Below, piece by piece: positions 5,243 through 28,894 of a stretch of 36,597 nt of DNA. The stretch spans positions 1 through 36,597 of the forward strand of contig JAUCBJ010002145.1 in NCBI GenBank assembly GCA_032718475.1, read 5' to 3'. The notes below the pieces were generated by a model that saw only the letters and a list, made by a program, of their open reading frames with translations, made no database searches and had not been told where the DNA came from. Positions within the stretch are counted from its first letter, which is position 1. Each line of letters begins with the position of its first letter. A program made the translations under genes and the position numbers. Origin of the DNA: Nemertoderma westbladi (Eukaryota > Animalia > Xenacoelomorpha).

Positions 5243-5380
5243 GTTATCTCTTATGGGGGTGGTGTTTTATTTAATGATGGTGTCTGTTCCGTATGCAGTT
5301 CTCAAATCTCCCACACATATTCATATATCATCTGCATGTGCACTAGAAAGATGTGGCCCGAAGGGCCACAGGCTTTCTAG
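5243..5380 (+). mobile_element. Helitron 3' end fragment (copy 0), truncated by the retroelement insertion
   Basis: It matches the 3' 138 bp of the downstream copies and ends in tgtggcccgaagggccacaggctttCTAG. Confidence 0.8.
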
Positions 5381-8300: not shown

Positions 8301-8473
8301 TTATTTACAATCTGCCTAAAGATGAAACTTGACAGTTATCTCTTATGGGGGTGGTGTTTTATTTAATGATGGTGTCTGTTCCGTATGCAGTTCTCAAATC
8401 TCCCACACATATTCATATATCATCTGCACGTGCACAATAAAGCCTGTGGCCCGAAGGGCCACAGGCTTTCTTG
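5381..8473 (+). mobile_element. Non-autonomous Helitron copy 1 (3093 bp)
   Basis: Starts TCtaatatatataaat, has a GTCT-type microsatellite near the 5' end and an internal 146-bp array, and ends in a GC-rich hairpin with a CTTG terminus. No Rep/helicase ORF. Confidence 0.8.
6116..8330 (+). repeat. 146-147 bp tandem array (about 15 units) inside Helitron copy 1
   Basis: The anchor motif ccgctagagggcg or a variant occurs at 6213, 6359, 6505, 6651, 6797, 6944, 7090, 7236, 7382, 7529, 7675, 7821 and 7967. Confidence 0.95.
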
Positions 8474-10713
8474 TCTATATATATAAATATCCTCTGTCTG
8501 TCTGTGAGTCTGTGAGTCTATGAGTCTGTGAGTCTGTCCAAGCTATATGCTCCGACACACATGCACCAATCTGAGCAAATGATACATCGATCGAAAGCTC
8601 TCGTCCTGAGCACGTAAACTATCGCAATCTCGAGGCTAATTTTACGCGTTTGCTTGCGTGAATGCGTATTTTGTGTTCGTTCGGGCGAAATGTATCGATT
8701 TATTTCGGTTCTTCTATCGGTAATTAATTATTTAGAGGGGTAACATTTATCCCATCTGGTATAAAATTAACATGAGTAGATTCGCCGTGTCCCATTCTCA
8801 CAAAGTATTTATTTTATTCGAGTGTTTAATATAAATATGTATGATTATTTATTGATTAAAAATCAAATAGTGTATAAATATGTCATATTCGCCAAGCACG
8901 ATCGAATTGGCCTATTCTTAGTGCTGTAGTGAATAGGGAAGGATTTTTTTCTGTATCATAGCAACGTTAAGGTAATTATCGAACTCGCAGCTAGCTGGCT
9001 GGGCACAGATAAGGAGCAAGCAGGCTGGAGTGTTGATTGGGGTGGGTTTGGGTTGTCTGTTGCGAATTGCTCAAGAGTAATTCTGCTTTCTCAATCATTG
9101 GCTGCATGGAAGGAGAGGTTTATAACATTTTTGTTTTACTGTTATGAATATTAAAAGTAAAATAATTATTTCTGTAGGCCTATAATACTTACTGTATTAT
9201 TATTTTATCTAATATTATACATCTAATCTCGATGAAATCTCGCTTACTATAGCTCGTTAGATAGGTCTCGCCCTAACTCGTTGCAACGTAATACTCAGAG
9301 CCGTCTGAAGTTCCCCCATCTGCCGCTAGAGGGCGTATTGTCCGATAGTGAAAACCTGATCTCATTGGGTTGTTTTTAATGCTTTTGAGCTGAAACTTGG
9401 TAGCTATATACTGCAGCATAGGCTGTATATCTCCGGAGTCACTGAGTTGTCCACAGTTCCCCAGTCTACCGTTAGAGGGCTAAATGTCTGAGAGTTAACA
9501 TCTTCTCCAACTTTGTTATTTATAATCCATTTAGACTGAACTTGGTAGGCATCTACTACAGCATAGGCTATATCTTTACTGAGTCGCGCAGAGTTGTCTA
9601 CATTACCCGCGTCTGCCGCTAGAGGGCGAAATGTATGAAAGTTAACATCTCCTCCAACTTTGTTATTTACAATCCTTTTAGACTGAAACTTGGTAGGCAT
9701 CTACTATAGCATAGGCTATATCTTTGCGGAGTAGTAGAGTCGTCTACAGTTCCACAGTCAGCCGCTAGAGGGCGAATTGTCTGAAAGTTAACATCTTCTC
9801 CAACTTTGTTATTTACTAACGGTTTAGACTGAAACTTGGTAGGCATCTACTACAGCATAGGCTGTACCTTTACGGAGTTACAGAGTTGTATACAGTCCCC
9901 CCATCTGCCGCTAGAGGGCGACATATCTGATAGTGAACACCTCATCCCATTTGGTTCTTTTTAATCATTTTGAGCTGAAACTTGGTTGGTATCTACTACA
10001 TCATAGGCTGTATCTTTACGGGGTTGCAGAATCCTATTCACTTCCCCAGTCTACCGCTAGAGGGTGAAATGTCTGAAAGTTAACGTCTTCTCCAACTTTG
10101 TTATTTACTAACGGTTTAGACTGAAACTTGGTAGGCATCTACTACAGCATAGGCTGTACCTTTACGGAGTCACAGAGTTGTATATAGTCCCCCCATCTGC
10201 CGCTAGATGGCGACATATCTGATAGTGAACACCTCATCCCATTTGGTTCTTTTTAATCCTATTGAGCTGGAACTTGGCAGGAATCTACTACAGCATATTC
10301 TGTATCTTTACGGAGTCCCAGAGTCGTCCACAGTTCTTCAGTCTACCGCTAGAGGGTGAAATGTCTGAATGTGAACATCTACATCAATTTTGTTATTTAC
10401 AATCTGTTTAAGCTGAAACTTGAAAGGCAGGCATTTTACTTCACCATAAACCCCATCTTTACCAAACTGCAGCGCCGTCTGCATTTCACCAGTCCGCAGG
10501 TAGAGGGTGGATCTGAAAGTGATCATTTTCTGGAAATTTTGTTATTTACAATCTGCCTAAAGTTGAAACTTGACAGTTATCTCTTATGGGGGTGGTGTTT
10601 TATTTAATGATGGTGTCTGTTCCGTATGCAGTTCTCAAATCTCCCACACATATTCATATATCATCTGCACGTGCACTAGAAAGCTGTGGCCCGAAGGGCC
10701 ACAGGCTTTCTAG
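8474..10713 (+). mobile_element. Non-autonomous Helitron copy 2 (2240 bp)
   Basis: Starts TCtatatatataaat and ends hairpin + CTAG. It abuts its neighbours with no spacer and no TSD. Confidence 0.85.
9226..10570 (+). repeat. 146-bp tandem array (about 9 units) inside Helitron copy 2
   Basis: Anchor motif at 9323, 9469, 9616, 9762, 9908, 10054, 10200 and 10346. Confidence 0.95.
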
Positions 10714-12887
10714 TCTATATATATAAATATCCTCTGTCTGTCTGTGAGTCTGTGAGTCTATGAGTCTGTGAGTCTGTCCAAGCTATACGCTCCGACACAC
10801 ATGCACCAATCTGAGCAAATGATACATCGATCGAAAGCTCTCGTCCTGAGCACGTAAACTATCGCAATCTCGAGGCTAATTTTACGCGTTTGCTTGCGTG
10901 AATGCGTATTTTGTGTTCGTTCGGGCGAAATGTATCTAATTATTTCGGTTCTTCTATCGGTAATTAATTATTTAGAGGGGTAACATTTATCCCATCTGGT
11001 ATAAAATTAACATGAGTAGATTCGCCGTGTCCCATTCTCACAAAGTATTTATTTTATTCGAGTGTTTAATATAAATATGTATGATTATTTATTGATTAAA
11101 AATCAAATAGTGTATAAATATGTCATATTCGCCAAGCACGATCGAATTGGCCTATTCTTAGTGCTGTAGTGAATAGGGAAGGATTTTTTTCTGTATCATA
11201 GCAACGTTAAGGTAATTATTGAAATCGCAGCTAGCTGGCTGGGCACAGATAAGGAGCAAGCAGGCTGGAGTGTTGATTGGGGTGGGTTTGGGTTGTCTGT
11301 TGCGAATTGCTCAAGAGTAATTCTGCTTTCTCAATCATTGGCTGCATGGAAGGAGAGGTTTATAACATTTTTGTTTTACTGTTATGAATATTAAAAGTAA
11401 AATAATTATTTATGTAGGCCTATACTTACTGTATTATTATTTTATCTAATATTATACATCTAATCTCGATGAAATCTCGCTTACTATAGCTCGTTAGATA
11501 GGTCTCGCCCTAACTCGTTGCAACGTAATACTCAGAGCCGTCTGAAGTTACCCCATCTGCCGCTAGAGGGCGAATTGTCCGATAGTGAAAACCTGATCTC
11601 ATTGGGTTGTTTTTAATGCTTTTGAGCTGAAACTTGGTAGCTATATACTGCAGCATAGGCTGTATATTTCCGGAGTCACTGAGTTGTCCACAGTTCCCCA
11701 GTCTACCGTTAGAGGGCTAAATGTCTGAGAGTTAACATCTTCTCCAACTTTGTTATTCGCGCAGAGTTGTCTACATTACCCGCGTCTGCCGCTAGAGGGC
11801 GAAATGTATGAAAGTTAACATCTCCTCCAACTTTGTTATTTACAATCCTTTTAGACTGAAACTTGGTAGGCATCTACTATAGCATAGGCTATATCTTTGC
11901 GGAGTAGTAGAGTCGTCTACAGTTCCACAGTCAGCCGCTAGAGGGCGAATTGTCTGAAAGTTAACATCTTCTCCAACTTTGTTATTTACTAACGGTTTAG
12001 ACTGAAACTTGGTATGCATCTACTACAGCATAGGCTGTACCTTTACGGAGTTACAGAGTTGTATACAGTCCCCCCCATCTGCCGCTAGAGGGCGACATAT
12101 CTGATAGTGAACACCTCATCCCATTTGGTTCTTTTTAATCATTTTGAGCTGAAACTTGGTTGGTATCTACTACATCATAGGCTGTATCTTTACGGGGTTG
12201 CAGAATCTTATTCACTTCCCCAGTCTACCGCTAGAGGGTGAAATGTCTGAAAGTTAACATCTTCTCCAACTTTGTTATTTACTAACGGTTTAGACTGAAA
12301 CTTGGTAGGCATCTACTACAGCATAGGCTGTACCTTTACGGAGTCACAGAGTTGTATACAGTCCCCCCATCTGCCGCTAGAGGGCGACATATCTGATAGT
12401 GAACACCTCATCCCATTTGGTTCTTTTTAATCCTATTGAGCTGGAACTTGGCAGGAATCTACTACAGCATATTCTGTATCTTTACGGAGTCCCAGAGTCG
12501 TCCACAGTTCTTCAGTCTACCGCTAGAGGGTGAAATGTCTGAATGTGAACATCTACATCAATTTTGTTATTTACAATCTGTTTAAGCTGAAACTTGAAAG
12601 GCAGGCATTTTACTTCACCATAAACCCCATCTTTACCAAACTGCAGCGCCGTCTGCATTTCACCAGTCCGCAGGTAGAGGGTGGATCTGAAAGTGATCAT
12701 TTTCTGGAAATTTTGTTATTTACAATCTGCCTAAAGTTGAAACTTGACAGTTATCTCTTATGGGGGTGGTGTTTTATTTAATGATGGTGTCTGTTCCGTA
12801 TGCAGTTCTCAAATCTCCCACACATATTCATATATCATCTGCACGTGCACTAGAAAGCTGTGGCCCGAAGGGCCACAGGCTTTCTAG
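10714..12887 (+). mobile_element. Non-autonomous Helitron copy 3 (2174 bp)
   Basis: Near-identical to copy 2 except for a deletion of about 64 bp near 11757. Ends CTAG followed by T at 12888, as expected for Helitron insertion at an A|T site. Confidence 0.85.
11464..12745 (+). repeat. 146-bp tandem array (about 9 units, one partly deleted) inside Helitron copy 3
   Basis: Anchor motif at about 11560, 11706, 11789, 11935, 12082, 12228, 12374 and 12520. Confidence 0.93.
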
Positions 12888-12891
12888 TAAC

Positions 12892-13185
12892 TGTATAAAG
12901 ATCGTCAGTCTGCGTTTAGGAAAAATATTTTATGACAAAACAGGACAAGCGACGAGTGCAACGAGGCATATAATGAAGACGAGTACTGCGTTGACTAAAT
13001 TATTATATAAACCACCTGGCTTCACATATTGATCGCATCCCTAGTTATTATTATTATAAAGATCGTCCTAGCCTGCGTTTAAGAAATATATTTAAATACA
13101 AAAGAGGACGAACGCAAAGAGGCTTATAATGAAAACGAGTACTGCGTTTATTATATTCCTATAAACCACCTGGCTTTGCATATTT
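12892..13185. repeat. Degenerate tandem duplication (about 160 bp x2)
   Basis: The pattern tataaagatcgtc...ctgcgttta...tataatgaa.acgagtactgcgtt...tataaaccacctggctt occurs twice. Confidence 0.8.
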
Positions 13186-13638
13186 AACGTGCGATTGGAA
13201 ATAAGTTCGTGCTACCCTTCCGTGGGTGGTAGATGTCGCGGTTATGTATTGGTGGTTGGGAAGGGTGGAGGGGGGGGGGGGGGAGATTAAAAGGGGTGAA
13301 CACGTACTGTCCCCCTTTCTTTGATTGATTGGTGGTGTGGGTAAATTTCTCAAAACCTGATTTTGTGATACAGTCGCTCAATTTTAATTTGTATATAATA
13401 ACTAGGCCTCGTGCTGCGCGAAGGCCCCACGAACGTGTAACTAACCACAAGGCAGGTAGAGAGATTGGCCAGCTAGATAACGAGATGGAAACCTGAATTC
13501 CCTACCTCCTATTACACTGTAGGGTCCATTATTGTGTTGTTGCTTTCGTCTCAGGTAATAGATTTAATAGGTCTAATTTTATTTATTTGTGTAGAATTAT
13601 TTGTAATTAGGCACTTAAACGTTCTAGAACAACCTAAT

Positions 13639-13797
13639 AATGACGCGTGACATACTGGATGTAAACTGGAAATACATATTAAATGTATGGCGTAGGGACA
13701 TACTGAGAAATAATGTCGCACTGCGATATAAAGTTAGAAAATATGTCGCCCTGGCGATTTGGTAGTGCGAAATTAATTCCATACAAATAAATAAAAA
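13639..13797 (+). repeat. Dispersed repeat, copy A (copy B at about 16195-16340)
   Basis: The two copies share aatgacgcg...actggaaatacata...atactgagaaataatgtcgcactgcga...gatttggtagtgcg.aattaattccatacaaataaataaaa. Confidence 0.85.
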
Positions 13798-14304
13798 GGG
13801 ATATGAATTTCATCAATATTCCTGGACATCACTACTATTAAAATGATTAATTAATTAAGTTAAGCGTTCGGAACCTCATGTTCCATGATGAGAGAGGGAG
13901 AGGATAGCCTATGACTTTCTTGAGAGTCCTCTTACTAAGGTGAAGATGCGGATGATCTCGCGGAAGTCATGGAGTTGTGGCCGCGCATTTTTGTCGATAA
14001 GCCGGCATAGCATTTTAATGCACAATTGTGGATTGCATGGATTTGCTTATATAGGCTCTCGTACTGGGCGAAGGCCCCACAACGTGTTCTGTTTGCGTGG
14101 TGATTCCTTTATAGTAAACGGAACATTACTTAAGAAGAGAAATAAAGACCATATTATCTTATCTCTTATTTGAAAAACACAAGAAATGTAAATTTGCAGG
14201 CACCATTTTTTCTTGCTTTTAAAACACTTTGACTTTACCATGAAAAACACTAATTGAAGCGCACGTCCTTTATGGCATAACCGCGTTACGATATGAAAAT
14301 ATTT

Positions 14305-14919
14305 AGGCTAGAGTTCCGAATGCAGTCGCATTTGATATTTTGTTATTAATTACTGAAATTATGTACTTTTTGCATAGTAATATCAAATAATAAATAAATA
14401 AATATTGTGTTCTAGAACATTAGCTAATCGACTAGCTAGTAATTTTTCAAAACCTGATTGATTATTATATATAAACATTTTTTTTTAATTTCTAAAAATA
14501 CTGCAAGTAGAAAATTAGTAGATATGTTTTGTATGGTAGCTAGTGTTTTTTTACTAGCTAGTTTTTTTTGTAATTATAAATAATGTGAAGTCATTGATAT
14601 TTCAGGATTAAACTAATGCAGAATATATTAATGAACAAAAATATTGATGATATTATAGCAGTATACGGTACATTTTTTGCATGGTAACAATGATTTTATG
14701 TTCAGTATTATAAAAATTCAGTTTTATTTTAAATTACCGGTACTAGCCATTTTAAATTTGAAAAATTACTAGCTATATGTTCTAGAAAATTATATTTTTT
14801 ATTTTATTTATGTTCTGGAACAGTGTATAATAATTATAGTTTGTTCTAGAACTCTGCAATGTTGCCATGGTAACAATGATTTATGTTATAAAAATGCGAC
14901 TGCATACGGAACTGTTCCC
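14305..14919. mobile_element. MITE / foldback element of about 615 bp
   Basis: Terminal inverted repeats agttccgaatgcagtcgcattt (14312) and aaatgcgactgcatacggaact (about 14892-14913). There are internal inverted repeats (tagctagtaatttttcaaa / tttgaaaaattactagcta), and aatattt occurs on both flanks. Confidence 0.75.
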
Positions 14920-15338
14920 AATATTTATGTTCAGAGGGAGCGTAACGAGATAAGTTTACATAAATAAGCGAGGCTCTTTTACGCTGAATGGACGGACCCC
15001 TTTCTTATAATGATGTAATTTTGCTACATTATGTGAGTCTGTTATCTTGGTTTTGTACACACGTAATAACATTAATATTGTATTGTTTGGTGAAATTTAA
15101 TTTGAAAAACACCAAGTGGAGAAAATTAACTTCCAAGGATCGCTAAAAATCTATGACAGTAGGCGTACTACTATACCAGTGGTATACTACCGTAATGTAA
15201 TTTGTATAACAAGAAATAATAACTATATACGTCATTGTTCATAAAATAGTACTTTATAGCGTTACGGCATGAATGATTTTGTATCACAAAACGAGGGCCG
15301 TACATAACTCTTTACATACCGGTACTTGTGTGAAATTT

Positions 15339-15440
15339 ATTATATAATATATATATATAATATATAATAATATATAAATATATATAATATATAATAATAT
15401 ATAAATATATATAATATATAATTATATTATTAATATTATT
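15339..15440. repeat. Pure A/T low-complexity (TA)n-like tract
   Basis: About 100 bp made of only A and T. Confidence 0.9.
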
Positions 15441-16019
15441 TGACCTTCTGACAGTAAGATGGTAGCTAGTACTTTTGATTTTGTGTTAGCTAGTACTTTT
15501 TATTAGCTAGTGAAAAAAATTTAAGATATAAGTTAATTTTCAATTATATTATACATTCACCTGGAATAATTTATGAGTCATGGTACAGTAGCTAGTAATT
15601 TTTATTTGATAGTCAAAGTAGGTCTAGCTAGTAATTATTTACTAGAATTTACTAGATTTCCAGAATGCATTATTTCCATTTATATAAATGCGAGCTGCTT
15701 AATTATCCAGTTTGCAGTGACGGGACAAGCTACTGTATGTAAATAATTGTTTAACGTGTACTGTAATCCATTATCTCGAAACGTCCAATAGAAGACACTA
15801 AAATGACCAAAGAAAATGGCGACAGTGTTCAGTAAAACTGAACGGACACAGACGGTGACTAAGATTGCTTCAGTTGACTATAGTGAAGATGGATTAATGA
15901 TTTATCACATCCATGCAGGAGATAACTTACAATAAACCTTAATTAGATTTAAATGTATTAAATAAATGAGTATCCATAAAATCCTTTCTTCACATACCGA
16001 ACGCTGATAAGTTGACAAA

Positions 16020-16190
16020 ATGTAACAAAATTACATACAACATTATGTACAAAGCAAAGGTCACTTTTCAGCGTTAAGACCCTTGTTTATTTATGTAAAC
16101 CTCCCTCGCTGCGCTCGCTCGGTACATAAATAAACGTAACGCTGCAAAGTGCTACTTTGCACACAATGATGTAAATAGTTGTGATTATAT
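16020..16190 (-). mobile_element. Palindromic non-autonomous element (same family as 30260-30860, opposite orientation)
   Basis: Imperfect foldback centred on ctcgctgcgctcg (tttatttatgta...tacataaataaa; cacttttcagcgtt...aacgctgcaaagtg). The arm actatttacat..ttgtgtg.aaagtagcacttt.cag is shared with about 30267-30305. Confidence 0.65.
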
Positions 16191-16194
16191 TTAG

Positions 16195-16340
16195 AATGAC
16201 GCGGTGATATACTGGAAATACATAGTAAATGTATGGCTTAGGGAAATACTGAGAAATAATGTCGCACTGCGACATTATTTAGAAAATATGTCGCCATGGG
16301 ATTTGGTAGTGCGGAATTAATTCCATACAAATAAATAAAA
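16195..16340 (+). repeat. Dispersed repeat, copy B (copy A at 13639-13797)
   Basis: Direct sequence similarity to copy A. Confidence 0.85.
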
Positions 16341-16452
16341 GTGTATAACTACCGGTGCTGACAATGTTGTTTCAAATTTATATCTATTCTGGAATAAATG
16401 TCATCTATGGTGTTTATAATACTTATTGATTGCATTCTGAAAATGTAAATTT

Positions 16453-17519
16453 GCGAGATACCGACCCAGCAGTCCTCCAGGCTCCCGCTGGAGGGTTACT
16501 AATGCGTGATACCGACCCAGCAGTCCTCCAGGCTCCCGCTAGAGGGTGACTAATGCGTGATACCGACCCAGCAGTCCTCCAGGCTCCCGCTGGAGGGTGA
16601 CTAATGCGTGATACCGACCCAGCAGTCCTCCAGGCTCCCGCTGGAGGGTGACTAATGCGTGATACCGACCCAGCAGTCCTCCAGGCTCCCGCTGGAGGGT
16701 GACTAATGCGTGATACCGACCCAGCAGTCCTCCAGGCTCCCGCTGGAGGGTGACTAATGCGTGATACCGACCCAGCAGTCCTCCAGGCTCCCGCTAGAGG
16801 GTGACTAATGCGTGATACCGACCCAGCAGTCCTCCAGGCTCCCGCTGGAGGGTGACTAATGCGTGATACCGACCCAGCAGTCCTCCAGGCTCCCGCTAGA
16901 GGGTGACTAATGCGTGATACCGACCCAGCAGTCCTCCAGGCTCCCGCTAGAGGGTGACTAATGCGTGATACCGACCCAGCAGTCCTCCAGGCTCCCGCTG
17001 GAGGGTGACTAATGCGTGATACCGACCCAGCAGTCCTCCAGGCTCCCGCTAGAGGGTGACTAATGCGTGATACCGACCCAGCAGTCCTCCAGGCTCCCGC
17101 TGGAGGGTGACTACGGCGTGATACCGACCCAGCAGTCCTCCAGGCTCCCGCTGGAGGGTGACTAATGCGTGATACCGACCCAGCAGTCCTCCAGGCTCCC
17201 GCTAGAGGGTGACTAATGCGTGATACCGACCCAGCAGTCCTCCAGGCTCCCGCTGGAGGGTGACTAATGCGTGATACCGACCCAGCAGTCCTCCAGGCTC
17301 CCGCTAGAGGGTGACTAATGCGTGATACCGACCCAGCAGTCCTCCAGGCTCCCGCTAGAGGGTGACTAATGCGTGATACCGACCCAGCAGTCCTCCAGGC
17401 TCCCGCTGGAGGGTGACTAATGCGTGATACCGACCCAGCAGTCCTCCAGGCTCCCGCTGGAGGGTGACTAATGCGTGATACCGACCCAGCAGTCCTCCAG
17501 GCACCCCCTAGAGGGTGCC
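16453..17519. repeat. 51-bp GC-rich minisatellite, about 21 copies
   Basis: Unit gataccgacccagcagtcctccaggctcccgct(a/g)gagggtgactaatgcgt, with essentially one A/G variable site. Confidence 0.98.
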
Positions 17520-17654
17520 TGACGGTTGAAATAGTTCGCCCGTATGATAAGCGAATGAACGTGGAAGTATTTACCAATGCGCCACTTTTTAAACTGTTGT
17601 AGGCGAAAGTTCTCATCATGTTTGGTTAATAAAAATACATTTGGTTTATCTCAG

Positions 17655-17787
17655 GGCCCTCAATGGCACCAGAAGTTGAGCACCTACCAGGAAGGTCTCC
17701 AACACCTCCTCTATCAACCCAACACCCTGTGTTTGTTGCACCACCACAAAGAAATCAACGCCTCATGCATTCCAATATATATTTAAA
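17655..17787 (+). CDS. PBRM1: Polybromo-1 (BAF180), third-from-last coding exon
   Basis: Bounded by tctcag| and |gtaagt. Encodes PSMAPEVEHLPGRSPTPPLSTQHPVFVAPPQRNQRLMHSNIYLK, matching the recalled vertebrate PBRM1 segment PMFVAPPPKTQRLLHSEAYLK. Confidence 0.88.
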
Positions 17788-17852
17788 GTAAGTTTATAAA
17801 ACTAATTAGCTTGTCGTTATAGTAACTATCTAATCGCTATAGTAATTGGCTA

Positions 17853-17958
17853 TGCTACCAACTGGCTTATCTCACCGTTATATTGGACCCACCGGCGGTG
17901 CTACCAACTGGCTTATCTCACCGTTATATTGGACCCACCGGCGGTGCTACAAACTGGC
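17853..17958. repeat. 46-bp tandem duplication (2.3 copies) in the short PBRM1 intron
   Basis: The unit tgctaccaactggcttatctcaccgttatattggacccaccggcgg starts at 17853 and 17899, with a partial copy at 17945. Confidence 0.95.
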
Positions 17959-18015
17959 AGTGAGGAGGCTATACCTTCAGAGGTTTTATCAAATTATAAT
18001 CTTTAACAATTACAG

Positions 18016-18152
18016 ATACATTGAAGGTCTAACACCGGAGAGTCGTTCAGTGAGCAACTGGAGGAGACAGTTAGCAGCTAATCAGGATAATACGTCGATA
18101 AACCACGAGCAAATAGGAAAGCTGCCAGCTCATTGGCTACCTCATGATATAG
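18016..18152 (+). CDS. PBRM1: Polybromo-1, penultimate coding exon
   Basis: Bounded by ttacag| and AG|gtaagt, and phase-compatible with the previous exon (AA|A = Lys). Encodes YIEGLTPESRSVSNWRRQLAANQDNTSINHEQIGKLPAHWLPHDI, versus recalled human YIEGLSAESNSISKWDQTLAA...EQESRLPSHWL. Confidence 0.9.
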
Positions 18153-20558
18153 GTAAGTTAACAACAGCAAATGGGAAAGCTGCCAGCTCATTGGCTACCT
18201 CATGATATAGGTAAGTTAACAACAGCAAATGGGAAAGCTGCCAGCTCATTGGCTACCTCCTGATATAGGTAAGTTAGCAACAGCAAATAGGAAAGCTGCC
18301 AGCTCATTGGCTACCTCCTGATATAGGTAAGTTAACAACAGCAAATGGGAAAGCTGCCAGCTCATTGGCTACCTCATGATATAGGTAAGTTAGCAACAGC
18401 AAATAGGAAAGCTGCCAGCTCATTGGATACCTCCTGATATAGGTAAGTTAGCAACAGCAAATAGGAAAGCTGCCAGCTCATTGGCTACCTCCTGATATAG
18501 GTAAGTTAGCAACAGCAAATAGGAAAGCTGCCAGCTCATTGGCTACCTCCTGATATAGGTAAGTTAACAACAGCAAATAGGAAAGCTGCCAGCTCATTGG
18601 ATATCTCCTGATATAGGTAAGTTAGCAACAGCAAATAGGAAAGCTGCCAGCTCATTGGATATCTCCTGATATAGGTAAGTTAACAATAGCAAATGGGAAA
18701 GCTGCCAGCTCATTGGCTACCTCCTGATATAGGTAAGTTAACAACAGCAAATGGGAAAGCTGCCAGCTCATTGGCTACCTCCTGATATAGGTAAGTTAGC
18801 AACAGCAAATAGGAAAGCTGCCAGCTCATTGGCTACCTCCTGATATAGGTAAGTTAACAACAGCAAATAGGAAAGCTGCCAGCTCATTGGATACCTCCTG
18901 ATATAGGTAAGTTAGCAACAGCAAATAGGAAAGCTGCCAGCTCATTGGCTACCTCCTGATATAGGTAAGTTAACAACAGCAAATAGGAAAGCTGCCAGCT
19001 CATTGGATATCTCCTGATATAGGTAAGTTAACAATAGCAAATGGGAAAGCTGCCAGCTCATTGGCTACCTCCTGATATAGGTAAGTTAACAACAGCAAAT
19101 GGGAAAGCTGCCAGCTCATTGGCTACCTCCTGATATAGGTAAGTTAGCAACAGCAAATAGGAAAGCTGCCAGCTCATTGGCTACCTCCTGATATAGGTAA
19201 GTTAACAACAGCAAATAGGAAAGCTGCCAGCTCATTGGATACCTCCTGATATAGGTAAGTTAGCAACAGCAAATAGGAAAGCTGCCAGCTCATTGGCTAC
19301 GTCCTGATATAGGTAAGTTAACAATAGCAAATGGGAAAGCTGCCAGCTCATTGGCTACCTCCTGATATAGGTAAGTTAACAACAGCAAATGGGAAAGCTG
19401 CCAGCTCATTGGCTACCTCATGATATAGGTAAGTTAACAACAGCAAATGGGAAAGCTGCCAGCTCATTGGCTACCTCCTGATATAGGTAAGTTAGCAACA
19501 GCAAATAGGAAAGCTGCCAGCTCATTGGCTACCTCCTGATATAGGTAAGTTAACAACAGCAAATGGGAAAGCTGCCAGCTCATTGGCTACCTCATGATAT
19601 AGGTAAGTTAGCAACAGCAAATAGGAAAGCTGCCAGCTCATTGGATACCTCCTGATATAGGTAAGTTAGCAACAGCAAATAGGAAAGCTGCCAGCTCATT
19701 GGCTACCTCCTGATATAGGTAAGTTAGCAACAGCAAATAGGAAAGCTGCCAGCTCATTGGCTACCTCCTGATATAGGTAAGTTAACAACAGCAAATAGGA
19801 AAGCTGCCAGCTCATTGGATATCTCCTGATATAGGTAAGTTAGCAACAGCAAATAGGAAAGCTGCCAGCTCATTGGATACCTCCTGATATAGGTAAGTTA
19901 GCAACAGCAAATAGGAAAGCTGCCAGCTCATTGGCTACGTCCTGATATAGGTAAGTTAACAATAGCAAATGGGAAAGCTGCCAGCTCATTGGCTACCTCC
20001 TGATATAGGTAAGTTAACAACAGCAAATGGGAAAGCTGCCAGCTCATTGGCTACCTCCTGATATAGGTAAGTTAACAATAGCAAATAGGAAAGCTGCCAG
20101 CTCATTGGCTACCTCCTGATATAGGTAAGTTAACTACAACAAATAGGAAAGCTGCCAGCTCATTGGATACCTCCTGACATAGGTAAGTTAGCAACAGCAA
20201 ATAGGAAAGCTGCCAGCTCATTGGATATCTCCTGACATAGGTAAGTTATCAACAGCAAATAGGAAAACTGCCAGCTCATTGGATATCTCCTGATATAGGT
20301 AAGTTAACAATAGCAAATAGGAAACCTGCCAGCTCATTGGATATCTCCTGATATAGGTAAGTTAGCAACAGCAAATAGGAAAGCTGCCAGCTCATTGGAT
20401 ACCTCCTGACATAGGTAAGTTATCAACAGCAAATGGGAAAGCTGCCAGCTCATTGGATACCTCCTGACATAGGTAAGTTATCAACAGCAAATAGGAAAGC
20501 TGCCAGCTCATTGGATATCTCCTGACATAGGTAAGTTATCAACAGCAAATAGGAAAGC
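18108..20558 (+). repeat. 58-bp satellite, about 42 copies, derived from the PBRM1 exon/intron junction
   Basis: Unit agcaaataggaaagctgccagctcattggctacctcctgatataggtaagttaacaac. The first GT is at 18153 and the last at 20531, exactly 41 x 58 apart. Confidence 0.97.
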
Positions 20559-21034
20559 GGCCTACATTGACAGGGCTACCTTGATATTGGAGCACCTTTT
20601 TGGTATACGAGCATCTTTTTGTTGTAAACAGTGTTATTTGTGCTATAATAAGCAATATTTATATTTAATGCTTCGTTTACAGAGAGTAATTGTCAATTAT
20701 CTTTCATATTAGTTATGTGGACCCATATTATTTATATGCACTGCGCTGAACTAAGGGTCTAATGTCCTGTAGACAGAAGAAAATCGGAAAGATTTACACT
20801 CCACAAAACACAAATTATTGTTATAATAATAATTAGTTAATTGTTTAAAAACAACGAGTAAATGACAAACATACCATGCTACATAAGTTGCTTTGTTTTA
20901 GTCCACATGCATTTCATCACTTAACAACATAAAAAAGTCTAAACAATATTTACAAACGTTTAATACAATAAATTACTGAATTAGTGAATTTAAACAAAAT
21001 CGACGACATATTGCTTTCTGTTACATGGCGACGT

Positions 21035-24000
21035 CTAATTGAATGAGTATTGTGGCCCAGGTGTCCCACCACACCATTGGCCAATAAAACGAAGGACATC
21101 TTGGCAGGCCGGACTATGACTGATTTTGGTTTGAGTTAAGTATTTATTCCATTCGGAAGAGATGGCCTCCTTACCAACCTCTTTAAACTCAACTTTATTC
21201 CGTATCACCGGGTATCCAGATATCACACAGGGCTGACTGTTGATGTTGTTACCAATTAGACTCGCCTCATAGATATCGCGTTCATCCTTTGGTAGAACCT
21301 GCTCCACGCTGTGGTCCATACTAACCGCCAGAACCCATTCCCTCACCTCTTCACGTTGGTCCTCGATGACATTAACATGTTCCGGAAGTTCGATCTCAAA
21401 TGGGATGTCTGTATCCCGGAAATCCGTATTATCTAACCCATCCAAAGAGTTCTCCTCAATGGCTTCGCATAAATCTAGGAACCTATTTAGGAATACGAAT
21501 GCCATGTTTCCCCACCCTTGGGCTCTACAATGTATCCCTGCTTCATAGAAAGCCCTATCTGCGGGTATGAGATGGGTATACCGGAGTAGGGATACAGATA
21601 ACTTAGCCAGTAGGGGTTCCAGTTGAGGTTGGCCGATGCATGAGCACCTAATAGCATTGTAGTGGGATACAAGTAGTAAAGCATTAAATATATCAGTGTC
21701 GGATTGGGTAACATCTGAATGACTACCTGTCTTTATATTCTCCGTCAAGTCGTACAACATGTCTCTTAAATTCGCCCATAACTTCTGAGCTTCGGCTGAG
21801 AGTGAGTTTGGCAATATCAAGAAATCAGCTGCGATCCGCTTGTAAATATTGAAGTTTTGATTGTTGGCTGGAGATCCATGCTCATTATACAAGTGTAGTG
21901 CATCTATAGAATTTCCTTTCTTGATTAAATTTGTTGCATATTTTGCAATATACTTATGTAAAACCTGAGCTCCCTGAGATTTAGCAGTTTCAATGCATTT
22001 AACCCACTCACCCCTTTCCGCCATTGTATCCAGAGCTTCACCCATATCAACCTTGGCAAGACTTTCAGTTTCACCATGAAATTTTAAATATTCTTTATAT
22101 TTATTTTCGACATAAGCCTCAAGTCGAGAATCCAATTCCCTCGCTACCTTCCGTGCTTTTGCCCACTCATCTCCTGCCATTAGAACATCCACAGCTTCTT
22201 GAACTAAATCAACATTTAAGTACAATTCGGCAGCGCCTTTGTACTTCTTGATCTTGACGAGTCTTGGGGCAATTTCATTCACAACACTCATTGCCTTATG
22301 ATTCTCAAGAAATTTTATTGCAATGTTTCCGGCTCTCATCCAGCATTGCTCCAATATTGTGGTATCATCCGTAATGGCATTCGATATGCGGCTATAAGCT
22401 TCAACTGCTTTAATGTGGTCACCTGATGTCTCAAAGGACTGAGCTTGATGAACAATCCCCTCAACACCAATTCCCTGCTCCATTGCTGATTGTTGAAATG
22501 CTCGTTGCAAATCATCAACCTTGTTTGGAAGGTATTCCTTACATATCCTCATAGCATCTTGGAACATTCCTGCTTCCTGATAATATGATACAGCTATTTC
22601 AGGTTTAAATGCCTTCAATAAATATGACTCCGCTTGTTGATATTCCTTATTATCAAATGCCATTCTTGCTTGACCGATTAGAACATCGGATATTGACTCC
22701 TTGTCATGTAATTCTGCAACTCTTTGCGCAGAATCCCAGTCTCTATTGTGGACATACATGAGGACTGCTTCCTTTGGGCGGTTGGCCTTAATAAATTCTT
22801 CTTCTGCTTCCCGGAATTTGCCTTCATCTTCTAAAAATTCTGCTTGTTTTATATGAATATCAGGAAGTTTTTCTTTCATGGCAGTTCGAGCCAATTCAAA
22901 TGCAAAGTCGAATGCCCCATTCTCAGCAGCATAGTCGATAGCTGACTCTAGCAACCCATATTTATTTAATAGTTTCACTGCTGATTCACCACCTAAACTC
23001 TTCGCCCATAGATAAGCAACCTGTTTGGACGCATTTGGACCTCCATGCCCTTTGGCCACCCTAAAAGCTTCATCCCATAGATCATTCAATCTGTACATAT
23101 TAACAGCATTTTTCCATTCTTTAGCTTCAACGAAATGGTGTTCTGCTTGTCTGAATTGCTTTTCGGCTTCTAGTTCTTTAGCGAGATGTAGATGACTTTC
23201 TTGAAGGAGTTCTGGATGATTATCTCGAATTAATTTGATCATTGGCTCGTATTGTTTCTCTCTCTTATACATAGCTATCGCTGAATCAGCGTCACCAGCA
23301 ATGAGATATAACCTTTCTGCTTCCTTGAACTTTCCCTGTTTCTCTAATTCCTCAGCTTGAACCATATACATTGTTGATACTTCATCTGGATTCATAGTTT
23401 GTGCTGCAATCTTATGTGCTTCTTCCCATTTCCCTGCTGATTTATACATATCAATGGCTTCTTTGTGCATACCTGCTTGCACATAATAATATTCTGCATG
23501 TTCATATTCCTTGATTGCTGCATAATGCAGTGCAATTCTGTGATAATATTGAGCTGCTACAGATTTATCTTGGAATTTCAATATTTGTATTGCCTTTTGC
23601 CATTGACGGGCCTGTATAGCAGCTTCAGTAGCCTTTAATGATGCCCCTGCTTCTATGTAATGATTTATAGCTGCATCCAACTGCTTTTGGGAAACTAAGT
23701 GATCGCCCCATTCCTCTTCTAACTTCACTACATCCTGGGGAAATGCAGTTTTTGCAAGGTCTAGAGCCCTTCTATATGCCTGGCCTCGTCTGTAGCATTC
23801 TAATGCTCGCTGCATTGATTTGGCCTTCTCAAATAGATCACCTGCTCTCTCAAAGAACTCTCCTTTAATTAATGCTGCCGCAATACGTTGGACCAAATCA
23901 GTATTTTCTAAGAGATTGTCACGAGTTGCCACAACTCGTGCTGCTCTTGCAGGCATACCAGCCTTCATATACAATTGTATTGCAGCATTTATTTCACCTT

Positions 24001-26287
24001 CATTTTCTTTGAGTTCCCCAGCTTTTTCCTCTTGCCCAGTATCCATTAGCCAGTCGTGGTAACTCCTCCTTAGATTATCAAGTTGAGGGTGTTGCTTAAC
24101 CTCAGCAACCTCTATTGCAGCATCCCATTTATGCAGCTGTTGATACATTGCTATTGCGTCATCAACACAGTTGTTTTCTATATAGATTCGCTCAGCTTCT
24201 TTAAACTGCTTCATCAACATTGCCAATTTCGCTTTGATGGTATAATGCCGAGTTCCATCTGTCATCTTCAGCTCTTCAGCAATAGTAATTGCTTCTTCAT
24301 TAAGTTGTTTGAGATATCGTGTCTTGGCAATGTCTCCAAGTGCAGCAAAGCACCTTTCAGCTATAAGTAGATGACTATTCTCCAAACTCAACTTACTTAA
24401 CGTTTTCCACATTGCTTCTGTCTCTGAACTCATCTCCAATGTTTCAAGAAACGAAATAGCTCTGCTATAATCTCCATCATCAACTGCTGTACCGAATTCT
24501 ATCAAACCTTCATCTAAGGTATACGAAATTGGAGACATACCCTCATTTACTATCACATCAGTTTTTCCATCTGTTCTTTCAACATCTGTGATGTCTCCCT
24601 TTATAGGAAACATACTAACTTGTTCTGGTACATCAATATTGTACCAGACACATAGATTGCCACGATTCTGAGCAACTACAACATCCGAACCTGGAACCCA
24701 TTGAACATAGGTGCAATAATTAAGTACTGTTGTCTTTGTCTCCGACATAATATCATATAGATATAATCGCAAGCGTTTATCTCGAAATAAAAGTTTCCTA
24801 CCAGTCTCATTCAATTCAAGCCAGTCGATTTTACTTTCATGGGAGAGGGTAGAGAGGGTGATACCGCTAGTTAAGTCAAGAATACATACTGTCTTCAAAT
24901 CCAACAGGTATACCATCTTTTTGCTATCTTCAACGCCATTTTGCTTTCGCTCATTTAGTCTAATACTGATTACATGGGGATTCATAAACTCCGTACGAAC
25001 AGAGCCCAATATCTCATTGGTGCCATATTCAATTAGGCTCAATTCCCCTGCATTAAATATCATACAAACTAATGGGTTTTCGAAGAAGAATTTTTCATTT
25101 CCTCCAGTTGCCTGCCATTGAACCTCACTCAGTCGACTGGTCTGCATGTCCCCCACCATAAGAGTGTCAGATGTGTGAGCCACCAGAAACCGGTCCTGTC
25201 CCATAACCTTTACCTCATCTATTTCGTAGCCATAGAAAGACTTGAGCACAACTCGATGTCCAGTTTCTATTGTTTTAACAATCACTTGACTCAATCCCAC
25301 ATATGTAACCTCAAATTTATTTCGGATAATGTTTCGTTTCAAGGCACAATCAAACATTTCCACAGCACCACACAAAGTTCCAGCTACTAGGCGAGAACCG
25401 TCTTTCCTCCAAGCGAGAGATGTTATGGTGTAAAGATTCTTAATTTCTTTGGATTTAGCTTCCTCCCAAGCGTGTCGCCGTGGACTCCAATTATAGACCC
25501 TCAGTTTATCCCATGAACCAACCACAAAAGACTGGCCACTTGGGCTACTGGCAGCCACTGTCAATTCTTTTTCGTCATCATCGTGAGAATAATCGAATTG
25601 TTGAACTTGTTTGCCGTCACGGTTATACACCACAACTCTCTTATCGCAGCCACCAGCAACTATTGTGCTCGCCGTCCAACACAGCGCATATGGTGGACAT
25701 CTGTGAGTGACTATCTTTCCCTGATTGCCACCCCCCTCCTCTTCAAAGAAGTACCTAGCGATACTCCCATCGGCGTGGCCTGATAGAAGAGTTTTTCCTG
25801 TTCCACTGCACGTCAAACTGACAACCATGGAATCGGTTCCAAACAATGTCGATGACTTGTTGGTTTTACTGTTACACAAGCGGATTTTACCATCACCTAA
25901 TCCGCAAACAATATCGCGATCAGGTGGCCAAATTAGAGCTAATACTGCAGAGCTCTGCGGAAACTTGTTACAAATAGTCTTCTTGTCACCCCATTCTTCC
26001 CCAATCTTATAAACTAATATTATATTATCTGTTTGCCCTATAGCTATCTTCGAAGAACATGGCGAAAACGCCATGCATTTCACCTGATAGGATTGTTTTC
26101 CATACTTTGCATCAGCAGGTTTCGTCGCGAATTTATCCTTTCTCTCACCTGTCTCATCAAACAGAATAATGGTCCTATCTGACGTAGCCACTGCTAGCTT
26201 TTGGTTATTTGGAGCCCAAGACATGCAAGTAATACGATGCATGCCATCCTGGTGCATCATTAATGACTTTAAGTATTTCAAATTCAT
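21035..26287 (-). CDS. IFT172: Intraflagellar transport protein 172, full length, single coding exon
   Basis: Uninterrupted 1750-aa ORF. The N-terminal WD40 region has hallmark segments (DKFATKPAD.KYG, IAIGQTDNII.VYKIGEEWGDKKTICNKF, SVRTEFMNPH.IS.R.NER). It is followed by a long TPR/alpha-solenoid and a C-terminal AFVFLNRFLDL...EEVREWVLAVSMD...PCVISGYPV. Length is essentially that of vertebrate IFT172. Confidence 0.98.
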   Translation of the reverse strand: MNLKYLKSLMMHQDGMHRITCMSWAPNNQKLAVATSDRTIILFDETGERKDKFATKPADAKYGKQSYQVKCMAFSPCSSKIAIGQTDNIILVYKIGEEWGDKKTICNKFPQSSAVLALIWPPDRDIVCGLGDGKIRLCNSKTNKSSTLFGTDSMVVSLTCSGTGKTLLSGHADGSIARYFFEEEGGGNQGKIVTHRCPPYALCWTASTIVAGGCDKRVVVYNRDGKQVQQFDYSHDDDEKELTVAASSPSGQSFVVGSWDKLRVYNWSPRRHAWEEAKSKEIKNLYTITSLAWRKDGSRLVAGTLCGAVEMFDCALKRNIIRNKFEVTYVGLSQVIVKTIETGHRVVLKSFYGYEIDEVKVMGQDRFLVAHTSDTLMVGDMQTSRLSEVQWQATGGNEKFFFENPLVCMIFNAGELSLIEYGTNEILGSVRTEFMNPHVISIRLNERKQNGVEDSKKMVYLLDLKTVCILDLTSGITLSTLSHESKIDWLELNETGRKLLFRDKRLRLYLYDIMSETKTTVLNYCTYVQWVPGSDVVVAQNRGNLCVWYNIDVPEQVSMFPIKGDITDVERTDGKTDVIVNEGMSPISYTLDEGLIEFGTAVDDGDYSRAISFLETLEMSSETEAMWKTLSKLSLENSHLLIAERCFAALGDIAKTRYLKQLNEEAITIAEELKMTDGTRHYTIKAKLAMLMKQFKEAERIYIENNCVDDAIAMYQQLHKWDAAIEVAEVKQHPQLDNLRRSYHDWLMDTGQEEKAGELKENEGEINAAIQLYMKAGMPARAARVVATRDNLLENTDLVQRIAAALIKGEFFERAGDLFEKAKSMQRALECYRRGQAYRRALDLAKTAFPQDVVKLEEEWGDHLVSQKQLDAAINHYIEAGASLKATEAAIQARQWQKAIQILKFQDKSVAAQYYHRIALHYAAIKEYEHAEYYYVQAGMHKEAIDMYKSAGKWEEAHKIAAQTMNPDEVSTMYMVQAEELEKQGKFKEAERLYLIAGDADSAIAMYKREKQYEPMIKLIRDNHPELLQESHLHLAKELEAEKQFRQAEHHFVEAKEWKNAVNMYRLNDLWDEAFRVAKGHGGPNASKQVAYLWAKSLGGESAVKLLNKYGLLESAIDYAAENGAFDFAFELARTAMKEKLPDIHIKQAEFLEDEGKFREAEEEFIKANRPKEAVLMYVHNRDWDSAQRVAELHDKESISDVLIGQARMAFDNKEYQQAESYLLKAFKPEIAVSYYQEAGMFQDAMRICKEYLPNKVDDLQRAFQQSAMEQGIGVEGIVHQAQSFETSGDHIKAVEAYSRISNAITDDTTILEQCWMRAGNIAIKFLENHKAMSVVNEIAPRLVKIKKYKGAAELYLNVDLVQEAVDVLMAGDEWAKARKVARELDSRLEAYVENKYKEYLKFHGETESLAKVDMGEALDTMAERGEWVKCIETAKSQGAQVLHKYIAKYATNLIKKGNSIDALHLYNEHGSPANNQNFNIYKRIAADFLILPNSLSAEAQKLWANLRDMLYDLTENIKTGSHSDVTQSDTDIFNALLLVSHYNAIRCSCIGQPQLEPLLAKLSVSLLRYTHLIPADRAFYEAGIHCRAQGWGNMAFVFLNRFLDLCEAIEENSLDGLDNTDFRDTDIPFEIELPEHVNVIEDQREEVREWVLAVSMDHSVEQVLPKDERDIYEASLIGNNINSQPCVISGYPVIRNKVEFKEVGKEAISSEWNKYLTQTKISHSPACQDVLRFIGQWCGGTPGPQYSFN

Positions 26288-26731
26288 TTTGATAAATTAA
26301 TTCGTAATAAAGTTTCTGTTTATGGAGTATTTGTTTATTATAGTTCACCAACAAACTGTTCTGGCCTACGCCTATGGTCGTTGAGCAGTTAAAGCACTAT
26401 GTTGATCCTAAACGCTTAAAAAATCATTATAACAATGACAAATTTAAGAATATTAGTGATGCTATTGGTAAATTACTACACAACTTTATGGTAAAGGCTA
26501 CCAATTTCCGATGCGCCAAAATAGGTAATTTAATCATCATTTTTTTCAAAATTAATTTGTGATTCAAAAGTAGATAGGCCTATATTTATAACCACTCATC
26601 ACAACAGATCTATCATCAATTAATAAGGTTAACATGCATCAGTTAAGTTACTTTTTTTTCACCTAATAAAGTAAACTACCGGTATGTATCAAATTAGATA
26701 CCAGATACAATTAGTATCGTCCCCACAATTA

Positions 26732-27117
26732 GGGGCCGTCCAAGTATGACGTCAGCACTTTAGGGGGGGGGGGGGGGGGGTTGGGAAAATCTGATGACGT
26801 GCTGATGAGGGGAGGGGAGGGGAGGGGGTCAGCCAAAATCTGACGTCAGCATGTTCATTTATAGGTGCTAGAAGAGATATAGCAGAAGAGTAAATAGCTT
26901 GCCTATTTTAATTGTTCGAAGCCCCCGAAGGCCCGTAGCACGACCTTCTGTTTCAGTTACCAGTCACCATGTTTCAGTGATTAGGACGCGAATTTTTTTT
27001 AAATCTGATTAAGGGGGGGGGGGGGGGGGTCAACGCCTATCTGATGACATCTGATTTAGGGGAGGGAGGGGGTCAACATTTTGGGGAAAAGTGCAGACCT
27101 CATACTTGGACGGCCCC
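26732..27117. mobile_element. PIF/Harbinger-type (Tourist-like) MITE
   Basis: Perfect TIRs GGGGCCGTCCAAGTATGA / TCATACTTGGACGGCCCC, flanked by a 3-bp TTA duplication (26729-26731 and 27118-27120). It contains two poly-G tracts. Confidence 0.88.
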
Positions 27118-28793
27118 TTACGTCTCTTGCTCAAACATTATTCATCATGACAGACAATATGAAAAGTAAAAATTTCGTAAAACTATTTGCTTGGATAATT
27201 TATATTCCAATCAAATGTTTGCAGAGGCGTATGTGTACCAGAATTAATCAAGCACTAGGCCTATATGTATGGAGCAACCAGCAAACCCATAATCGGATTT
27301 GCAATTACGAAGAAATTTAGAACCCCACAGATATCACCACTACAATGTACCCCTAAGACCAAATCGGAAATGCGGTTAACCGTTTAAGGTCAATGCTTCA
27401 CTTATTACACAATACAACGGTTGATTATTTAGGGCCTAATGTGGTTAATTTAATTTGTTGATATATATATAAGCATTGATATATATATTAATTTTTATTG
27501 TTAATTTTGGAGATTAAATCACCAATGTAGTAACAAAAATATTAATAATAAATTATAAATAATATTTTATTTTTAAAATGACAGCTAAACAACGATGTCA
27601 ATGATCTACAGTAGGCCTGCCAGCCTGTAGGAGTGTTGGCAAGGTAATAAATAAGCTGACAAGGCGGGGGCGGGCTGCGCAACATTAAAATCAATAATAT
27701 ATTGCTAACTGTCACGGTCGGACGTCAGGACGTTATTGTACTAAATTTATTAGATTATAGCTTCACTAAGCCTTACTGTACCAACCAGCCAACCAAACCT
27801 ACGCCGAAACAAACGAAAATCTGAACATTTACATAAAACTAAATGTGACTGAATGCAGGAATTTTAAATAAAGATTAAATAATGGTGGTAGGCCACAATT
27901 ACAATGTGATGAGGCTGATGTACCGTTGTAGTTGTACCGTACCGCGTATCCAAGAAAGGCCATCTCAGCATCTAAAAGTTGTTTAGATGGCCTTGACTGT
28001 TGACCGTAAGTCTTGACCGTACCCTCCCCTCCCTGCGCTGTGCGGTGGTGTCTGATCTGGTATCTGGATCTGTTGTACTTGTATTACTAAATAAGAATCT
28101 GAAATAAAGTACCGCAGGTAACGCCCCCAAACACGTCATGTACTGTACCGGTACCGGCAGGCCGATGCCTAACTGCTGAACTGGTAAACTCTGAAATTAA
28201 TGCAGGAATGAAATGCACATTCCTTACTGAGTAGCTACAGTATACTTGCCAACTTAACAACCGTTGCTAGGCTGCCAGGATATGAGCCAATAGATGAATA
28301 GCTATGGACGAATTTTATTTAGAAAAATAAATATAACTTAATAATACAATTAATTGAGTATTATTATCAATATTTTTTATATTTGTTTATCAATCAAATC
28401 ATAATAGTCTCTGTGTGTAGTGATTAATTATGCCTTATAAAAATCTGGTACCGTTAAGCTTTATATGTTTTTGATTTTATTGATTTTCAAATTAAGCGCT
28501 TCCATTTTAAAATTGTTTTACCTGGATTAAATGACACCTTTTACGTAAATATCGGATACCTTGAATCGTTTAATCACGTTGTCTTAAATGTTGTAATAAT
28601 CATACTAGATTATTCCAACACGTCATGTGAGGTATTGCTTAAATGAAAAATGAAAAATTCTACATTATGCATTTAAATAGTGGCGAATTCATATAAACCA
28701 TATTTTTTGTGCCTTCAACAGTTTAATAATATGAATACTATGTAATTACAAATTTGTAACTTATTTAATACATTGAGATCATTTTATTTACAG

Positions 28794-28894
28794 GTGGACA
28801 TCAGGATGTTGTATCTGCTCTATGGTCTTTGCGAGACTATATGCTCCAAGATGCTCTGAAACTAGACAGGGTCCTTGATGCAACAGAGTTCTAG
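28794..28894 (+). CDS. PBRM1: Polybromo-1, terminal coding exon
   Basis: Acceptor attttatttacag|, phase 1 compatible (G|GT = Gly). Encodes GGHQDVVSALWSLRDYMLQDALKLDRVLDATEF-stop (TAG at 28892-28894), versus recalled human GAHTTMADALWRLRDLMLRDTLNIRQAYNLENV-stop. Confidence 0.9.

What the first reader, a model, noticed from the sequence alone, without database searches (positions are those of the whole stretch)
18108..20558. Satellite made from a live exon end: 42 tandem consensus 5' splice sites
Seen in sequence: the 58-bp unit is the last 43 nt of the PBRM1 exon plus a 15-nt GTAAGTTAACAACAG piece. AG|GTAAGT therefore recurs 42 times with the same exonic context, and the donor hexamer looks invariant while flanking positions vary. 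Only the first donor keeps the frame. Using any later donor reads GKLTTANGKAASSLATS into TGA (18203-18205) and loses the conserved ALWxLRD C-terminal segment. With donor 2 (18211) the stop lies only 5 nt from the last junction and should escape 50-nt-rule NMD, whereas later donors should trigger it. Inference: the array could be a copy-number-tunable splicing rheostat, a set of recursive AG|GT ratchet points, or a U1 snRNP loading array that protects the long intron from premature polyadenylation. It could also be a neutral expansion that the spliceosome ignores.
Basis: partly seen in the sequence, partly recalled or inferred. Interest (0 to 1): 0.85.

Follow-up and report, generated by a model that had tools for sequence, protein, structure and literature searches.

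The report
Repeated splice donor in PBRM1 intron
The end of one exon of an animal's PBRM1 gene, with its splice signal, is copied 42 times into the next intron, but the one assembled transcript uses only the first signal, so this is likely a harmless example of a repeat type already known from human and lancelet genes.

Summary
18108-20558 is 42.3 copies of a 58-bp unit made of the end of PBRM1's second-last exon plus its donor, so AG|GTAAGT recurs 42 times. The array's words stand at high depth in two DNA runs from different studies. One run that behaves as RNA holds a single 896-nt contig that leaves at donor 1 (18152/18153) and joins the last exon (28794); no array-derived contig was laid in that run. 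Donor invariance is at chance level (P 0.13-0.27), and the exon-derived part drifts like non-coding DNA. Block duplications point to ordinary minisatellite turnover. This is a known kind: human F7, CBS, 6-16, LMNB2 and PDGF arrays, and lancelet 'mirages'. For F7, first-donor choice was shown by mutagenesis (PMC1557585). The scan has noted the same kind in this genome before: 12 distinct unreviewed notes, many on far larger arrays. A rheostat is unsupported. Minor leakage and recursive splicing cannot be excluded, because contigs drop rare forms and re-splicing would give the same mRNA. Ordinary; low interest.

The parts
18108..20558 (+). 58-bp minisatellite, 42.26 copies; unit = last 43-45 nt of exon B plus first 13-15 nt of the intron; 19 unit types; ends in a 15-nt partial unit
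18153..18158 (+). Donor 1, the authentic 5' splice site (AG|GTAAGT)
   Evidence: 896-nt contig of run X4 leaves here and continues in the last exon
18211..20536 (+). 41 pseudo-donors, one per unit, at 58-nt spacing; none seen used
   Evidence: 1 of 1 X4 records laid on 17560-18240 is the donor-1 contig
18203..18205 (+). TGA in unit 2 that would end the frame for any later donor
17655..17787 (+). PBRM1 exon A (third-last exon seen)
   Evidence: joint 17787>18016 GT..AG in X4; weak match to P0002
18016..18152 (+). PBRM1 exon B (137 nt, second-last), source of the repeat unit
18153..28793 (+). Last PBRM1 intron, 10,641 nt; the array is 23% of it
28794..28894 (+). Coding part of the last PBRM1 exon (ALWSLRD segment; stop 28892-28894); X4 contigs continue to 29897
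21035..26287 (-). Intronless IFT172 reading frame (1,750 aa) nested antisense in the same intron; context, not part of the repeat
   Evidence: partly covered by X4 and X5 contigs

Best explanation
The array is 42 tandem copies of the PBRM1 exon end and its splice donor, the one assembled transcript leaves at the first donor, and the array is likely a neutral minisatellite that likely grew by slippage or unequal exchange. Shown: the anatomy, donor-1 use in one RNA-like run, and duplicated blocks of units. Inferred: a 58-bp duplication across the exon/intron junction seeded the array; the spliceosome defines the 137-nt exon from its upstream acceptor and takes the first donor it meets, as shown for human F7; the 41 later copies stay silent and leave with the intron; rare later-donor products would end at the TGA in unit 2.
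For: RNA: X4 is listed as 'DNA?' but its contig joins 17787>18016 across GT..AG. Its 896-nt contig (depth 158.2) covers 18016-18154 at record 317-455 and 28792-29231 at record 452-891, so there is no extra unit at the junction. It was 1 of 1 X4 records laid on 17560-18240 at 90% likeness. In simulation, use of donor 2, 3 or 4 adds 49, 80 or 123 new 31-mers and splits this contig. No sign of selection on the donor: P = 0.13-0.27. Exon-derived variants are 6 non-synonymous to 2 synonymous, against 77% expected for unconstrained change. Turnover: units 2-9 equal units 23-30 and units 10-14 equal 16-20; 0 of 2000 shuffles reach an 8-unit block; 3' units are the most diverged. No special fold at the donor, z -0.02 to 1.02. 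Precedent: F7 IVS7 uses only the most upstream site, shown with 50 constructs (PMC1557585); lancelet mirages do not disturb splicing (PMC3087553, PMC3902484).
Against: One RNA-like run with a readable junction, as contigs only. Logan contigs are simplified graphs (PMC12424806) and drop rare forms, so minor leakage is not excluded; human 6-16 and CBS arrays do use nearby pseudo-sites (PMC1557585 introduction). An unreviewed scan note reports a later copy used in GALNS in this genome (e1-10614089; not tested here). Mature RNA cannot exclude recursive splicing. The test of donor invariance has little power: 13 variant alleles, and the observed 12-nt invariant run around the donor has P 0.05 as a fixed window, although some run of 12 or more arises in 70% of permutations. 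The scanning mechanism was shown in mammalian cells, not in this animal.
Confidence: 0.72

Rival explanations
1. Self-correcting ratchets: the copies are sometimes used in multi-step splicing. Donor 1 would splice to an internal AG and regenerate a donor, or a later donor would join the last exon first and the retained GT..AG piece would then be spliced out. Both routes give exactly the donor-1 mRNA.
For: Removing GT(donor 1)..AG(before donor n) from a donor-n product gives the donor-1 mRNA letter for letter, tested for n = 2, 5 and 42. The 20 nt before the unit's AG hold 12-13 pyrimidines, like the three real acceptors (12 each). 5' and 3' ratcheting are described pathways (PMC4829307 passages).
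Against: The unit has 7-8 T against 9-10 in the real acceptors, and 22% of 384 background AGs in the same intron have as many pyrimidines, so it is not a marked acceptor. No intermediate was seen in X4, although poly(A) contigs would rarely hold one. The identity of products follows from any AG|GT junction duplication and needs no selection.
Confidence: 0.12
2. Leaky but unregulated donors: the nearest pseudo-donors are used at a low rate, giving a C-terminally truncated PBRM1 (donor 2) or decayed RNA (later donors), with no regulatory role.
For: [quoted passage not shown] All copies keep the same donor letters. Contigs drop rare forms.
Against: No array-derived record in X4 at junction depth 158. 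F7, LMNB2 and PDGF use only the authentic site.
Confidence: 0.11
3. Selected control device: copy number tunes PBRM1 dose through unproductive splicing, or the array loads U1 snRNP to shield the intron from premature polyadenylation.
For: 42 intact strong donors. The unique part of the intron has 12 AATAAA and 7 ATTAAA words on the + strand and the array has none.
Against: Donor invariance is at chance level. The NMD-escaping donor-2 form is not seen. The array covers only the first 23% of the intron, and U1 protection is short-range (recalled). Many unrelated genes of this genome are noted to carry such arrays (unreviewed), which fits a mutational tendency better than gene-specific design.
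Confidence: 0.04
4. Assembly artefact: the array was inflated or invented by the assembler.
For: No record spans the array, and the exact copy number could not be read from contigs.
Against: X1 and X2 hold many variant array contigs at high depth: one at 410.7 against 22.5 in the flank (X1), one at 155.2 against 15.6 (X2). The 6 listed array contigs of each run alone give at least 10-20 copies (X1) and 4-8 copies (X2). An X2 contig runs from unique DNA into the last unit.
Confidence: 0.01

Closest known systems
Human F7 intron 7 37-bp VNTR (PMC1557585; abstract, introduction and discussion read)
   Same: First monomer spans the exon/intron boundary, so the donor is repeated in the intron; only the most upstream donor is used.
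   Different: F7 has 5-9 copies with 4 exon nt per unit; this has 42 copies with 43-45 exon nt. F7's pseudo-sites were shown functional by mutagenesis; here untested.
Human CBS intron 13 31-bp VNTR, c.1444_1467+7(16_21) (PMC2630376 passages), and the 6-16, LMNB2 and PDGF arrays as cited in PMC1557585 (primary papers not read, the CBS VNTR paper was not held)
   Same: Unit mostly exon-derived (CBS: 24 exon + 7 intron nt), tens of copies, single-base variants among units.
   Different: CBS and 6-16 also use nearby pseudo-sites; none was seen here. CBS length polymorphism is documented; here it was not measured.
Lancelet 'mirage' minisatellites: Adh3, globins BflGb6 and BflGb9, troponin C, PGBD5 (PMC3087553 and PMC3902484 passages; supplements not read)
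   Same: Invertebrate tandem repeats across an exon/intron boundary, concerted turnover with diverged edge units, normal splicing.
   Different: More copies than the globin cases (3-6 units in BflGb6). The host is another animal: IFT172 is 59-67% identical to the listed hits, apart from one at 51%, with no close named relative.
Recursive-splicing ratchet points (PMC4829307 passages)
   Same: An AG directly before GT inside a long intron.
   Different: Here the AG is the copied exon end, the acceptor context is unremarkable, the points are 58 nt apart, and no intermediate was seen.

Membership tests
Junction-spanning minisatellite ('mirage', F7/CBS type) | Head-to-tail tandem array of minisatellite-size units | tested here: met
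   58-bp period, 42.3 copies, mean pairwise difference 4.8%
Junction-spanning minisatellite ('mirage', F7/CBS type) | First unit overlaps a real exon/intron boundary of an expressed gene | tested here: met
   Exon B is PBRM1 and is spliced at 18152/18153 in X4
Junction-spanning minisatellite ('mirage', F7/CBS type) | Splice signal repeated in the copies | tested here: met
   42 of 42 units carry AG|GTAAGT
Junction-spanning minisatellite ('mirage', F7/CBS type) | Authentic site remains the main one used | tested here: met
   One run, one contig at depth 158.2 through donor 1; minor forms not excluded
Junction-spanning minisatellite ('mirage', F7/CBS type) | Length polymorphism between alleles (VNTR) | tested here: inconclusive
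   Array present in X1 and X2, copy numbers not resolvable; X3 differs at the right boundary
Recursive-splicing ratchet points | Functional acceptor directly followed by a donor | tested here: inconclusive
   AG|GT present; pyrimidine count like real acceptors but also like 22% of background AGs
Recursive-splicing ratchet points | Splicing intermediates or lariats at the point | not testable with these tools
   Only contigs were available and no run is on record as RNA
Splicing-regulating tandem repeat (spl-TR, PMC10078293 passages) | Splicing level changes with repeat length across individuals | not testable with these tools
   No matched DNA and RNA panel

The most novel reading that the evidence does not exclude
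The array is a self-correcting ladder of ratchet points: the spliceosome does use internal copies, but every route regenerates the donor-1 mRNA. That would explain why an animal genome can carry such splice-site arrays in many essential genes at no visible cost, and the unit variants would serve as natural barcodes for following multi-step splicing.
Probability: 0.12. Interest if true: 0.6.

Novelty: new member of a known kind. Interest (0 to 1): 0.15.

Why it matters
On its own, little: it is one more, mid-sized case of a described repeat type, and the transcript seen is normal. Its use is as a test bed. With 42 identical donors, 19 distinguishable unit types and a donor-2 product that should escape decay, it could test whether first-donor choice, shown for human F7, also holds in a distant animal. 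The more interesting question is genome-wide: why this genome is noted to seed arrays at splice junctions so often. That rests on unreviewed scan notes and cannot be answered from this window.

Tried and rejected
No whole genome is held, so no genome-wide count of junction arrays and no enrichment test was possible. No RNA holder is listed among the 6 runs; X4 was recognised as RNA-like only by its spliced contig. X6 laid 0 records, which is no proof of absence. X1 and X2 have no cover at about 17930-18110, so the left boundary of the array is not bridged in DNA contigs; a filter may explain the hole. X5 has a contig that starts at 28792 with 21 unaligned letters (depth 4.2), as a spliced RNA would, but the letters were not shown, so its donor is unknown. 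Copy number from simulated unitigs did not match the simplified contigs well enough to test 42 exactly. Pfam found 0 families for the three PBRM1 exon pieces and for the ORF at 35111-36586. The exon upstream of exon A is not in the window: 0 matches. A hairpin over the donor is no more stable than shuffles and is shared by units 1 and 4, so it cannot explain the choice of donor 1. The IFT172 protein is not in the cluster collection, and its homologues did not place the animal; an unreviewed note says 'likely acoel', not tested. Paper searches with 0 hits: (a recalled UPF3A case was not found and is not used). PMC4329672 held nothing relevant. The paper search on acoel repeats was seen as a listing only. 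No earlier scan note lies near this window or names the nested IFT172.

Full report
Observation. The array runs 18108-20558, 42.26 copies of 58 bp (TRF 42.3 copies, 95% matches). All 42 AGGTAAGT words of the window lie in it at exact 58-nt spacing. The first unit overlaps the 3' end of a 137-nt exon (18016-18152). That exon matched 2 of 2 candidates, both named polybromo-1 (59% over 41 aa). The exon before it (17655-17787) and the last exon (from 28794, stop 28892-28894) match the neighbouring parts of the same protein. One search's script placed two exon borders one base off without changing the translation; one search uses the right ones. Donors 2-8, the ones translated, all end at TGA 18203-18205.

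Is the array real? DNA runs X1 (possibly the source) and X2 (another study) hold many short variant contigs of the unit at high depth: up to 410.7 against 22.5 in the flank, and 155.2 against 15.6. Of 21 and 47 records laid, 8 each were listed, 6 of them in the array. Those alone give lower bounds of 10-20 and 4-8 copies. An X2 contig of 6,232 nt runs from unique DNA into the last unit. The array is real; its exact length was not testable.

Which donor is used? No run is on record as RNA, but X4 holds a contig that skips 17788-18015 across GT..AG, so it behaves as RNA. This 896-nt contig (depth 158.2) covers exon B to 18154 at record places 317-455 and the last exon from 28792 at places 452-891: the junction is donor 1 to 28794 with no extra unit. 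The 30 letters shown before the acceptor fit only donors 1, 2, 5, 23 and 26, and the record places single out donor 1. It was 1 of 1 X4 records laid on 17560-18240. In simulation, use of donor 2 adds 49 new 31-mers and splits the contig in four, so frequent use should have shown. Donor 2 is the informative case, because its stop lies 5 nt from the junction and should not be hidden by decay. Limits: one run, contigs only, and Logan contigs are simplified graphs (PMC12424806 passages), so rare forms may be lost.

Is the donor being preserved? Not detectably. Only 11 of 58 columns vary, so an untouched hexamer has P = 0.27 and an untouched -3..+6 has P = 0.13. The longest invariant run, 15 nt, is exon-derived and away from the donor. 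The test is weak (13 alleles); the 12-nt invariant run around the donor has P 0.05 as a fixed window, but some run that long arises in 70% of permutations. Read in the exon's frame, the copies' variants are 6 non-synonymous to 2 synonymous, against 77% expected without constraint.

How it grew. Units 2-9 equal units 23-30 (517 nt exact) and units 10-14 equal 16-20; 0 of 2000 shuffles reach an 8-unit block. Distance from unit 1 rises toward the 3' end (rho 0.54; units are not independent). This is the pattern of slippage or unequal exchange with diverged edges (inference). The window has other intronic arrays of 146, 51, 46 and 32 bp, so the genome makes such repeats readily.

Mechanism. Shown: anatomy, donor-1 use in one run, block duplication. 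Inferred: a junction-spanning duplication seeded the array; exon definition from the acceptor at 18015 and first-donor choice keep splicing normal; the copies leave with the 10.6-kb intron. Folding does not explain the choice. The rival that mature RNA cannot refute is multi-step splicing: removing GT(donor 1)..AG(before donor n) from a donor-n product gives the donor-1 mRNA exactly (n = 2, 5, 42). The unit's acceptor context has as many pyrimidines as the three real acceptors but fewer T, and 22% of 384 background AGs match it, so this stays open at low odds. A rheostat or U1 shield has no positive evidence.

What is known. PMC1557585 (abstract, introduction, discussion read) describes the human F7 array, whose first monomer spans the junction and where only the most upstream donor is used, and lists 6-16, CBS, LMNB2 and PDGF; 6-16 and CBS also use nearby pseudo-sites. 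PMC2630376 (passages) gives the CBS VNTR as 24 exon plus 7 intron nt, 16-21 copies. PMC3087553 and PMC3902484 (passages) describe lancelet 'mirages' that do not disturb splicing. I reached the CBS parallel before opening the scan's notes; the F7 paper and the name 'mirage' came from those notes, and I checked them in the papers. Searches list 12 distinct unreviewed notes on such arrays in other genes of this genome, up to about 2,100 copies; one (GALNS) reports a later copy in use. I did not test them.

Verdict. Real, correctly described, a new member of a known kind, smaller than others noted in the same genome, and with normal splicing in the one transcript seen. Interest 0.15. The boldest reading left open is self-correcting recursive use (probability 0.12).

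Noticed in passing
window 21035-26287, - strand: A complete, intronless IFT172 frame (1,750 aa) lies antisense inside the last PBRM1 intron. X4 and X5 contigs cover parts of it; the X4 contig ends at 20793, 235 bp short of the array. IFT172 has many introns in vertebrates (recalled), so this may be a retroposed or intron-stripped gene.
   Followed up: partly
window 34189-34861: A 32-bp array (21 copies) may be a second junction repeat. On the - strand the edge copy reads ATG GG|GTGAGC; on the + strand an acceptor-like TTTCAG lies 27 nt before a GTAAG word in the first unit. No RNA was laid here.
   Followed up: partly
window 20545-20558 and 26728-27118, run X3: X3 carries another haplotype: 66 other letters over an 8,307-nt contig, and it lacks a 389-bp high-copy insertion at 26729-27117. 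Its contig aligns only from 20556 and has 52 unaligned letters before that, so the array's right edge may differ between haplotypes. The letters were not shown.
   Followed up: partly
window 5557-12603 and 16452-17517: The 146-bp and 51-bp arrays share an 13-nt core found 40 times (21 and 19 places); it resembles the CTCF-binding motif (motif recalled, not tested). Both likely lie in the long intron upstream of exon A.
   Followed up: partly
window 5237-12912: The 146-bp arrays sit inside larger tandem segments of about 2.2-3.1 kb, 85-99% alike, a nested repeat structure.
   Followed up: no
window 1-17654: The PBRM1 exon upstream of exon A, seen as a loose end in X4, is not in the window, so that intron is likely longer than 17.6 kb.
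   Followed up: partly
window 35072-36589, + strand: A 505-codon open frame rich in K, N and Q with no Pfam match; possibly a retroelement ORF1 (guess).
   Followed up: no
window 20544-20558: The array ends in a 15-nt partial unit, too long for chance microhomology, so the right edge was likely trimmed or rearranged after the first duplication.
   Followed up: no
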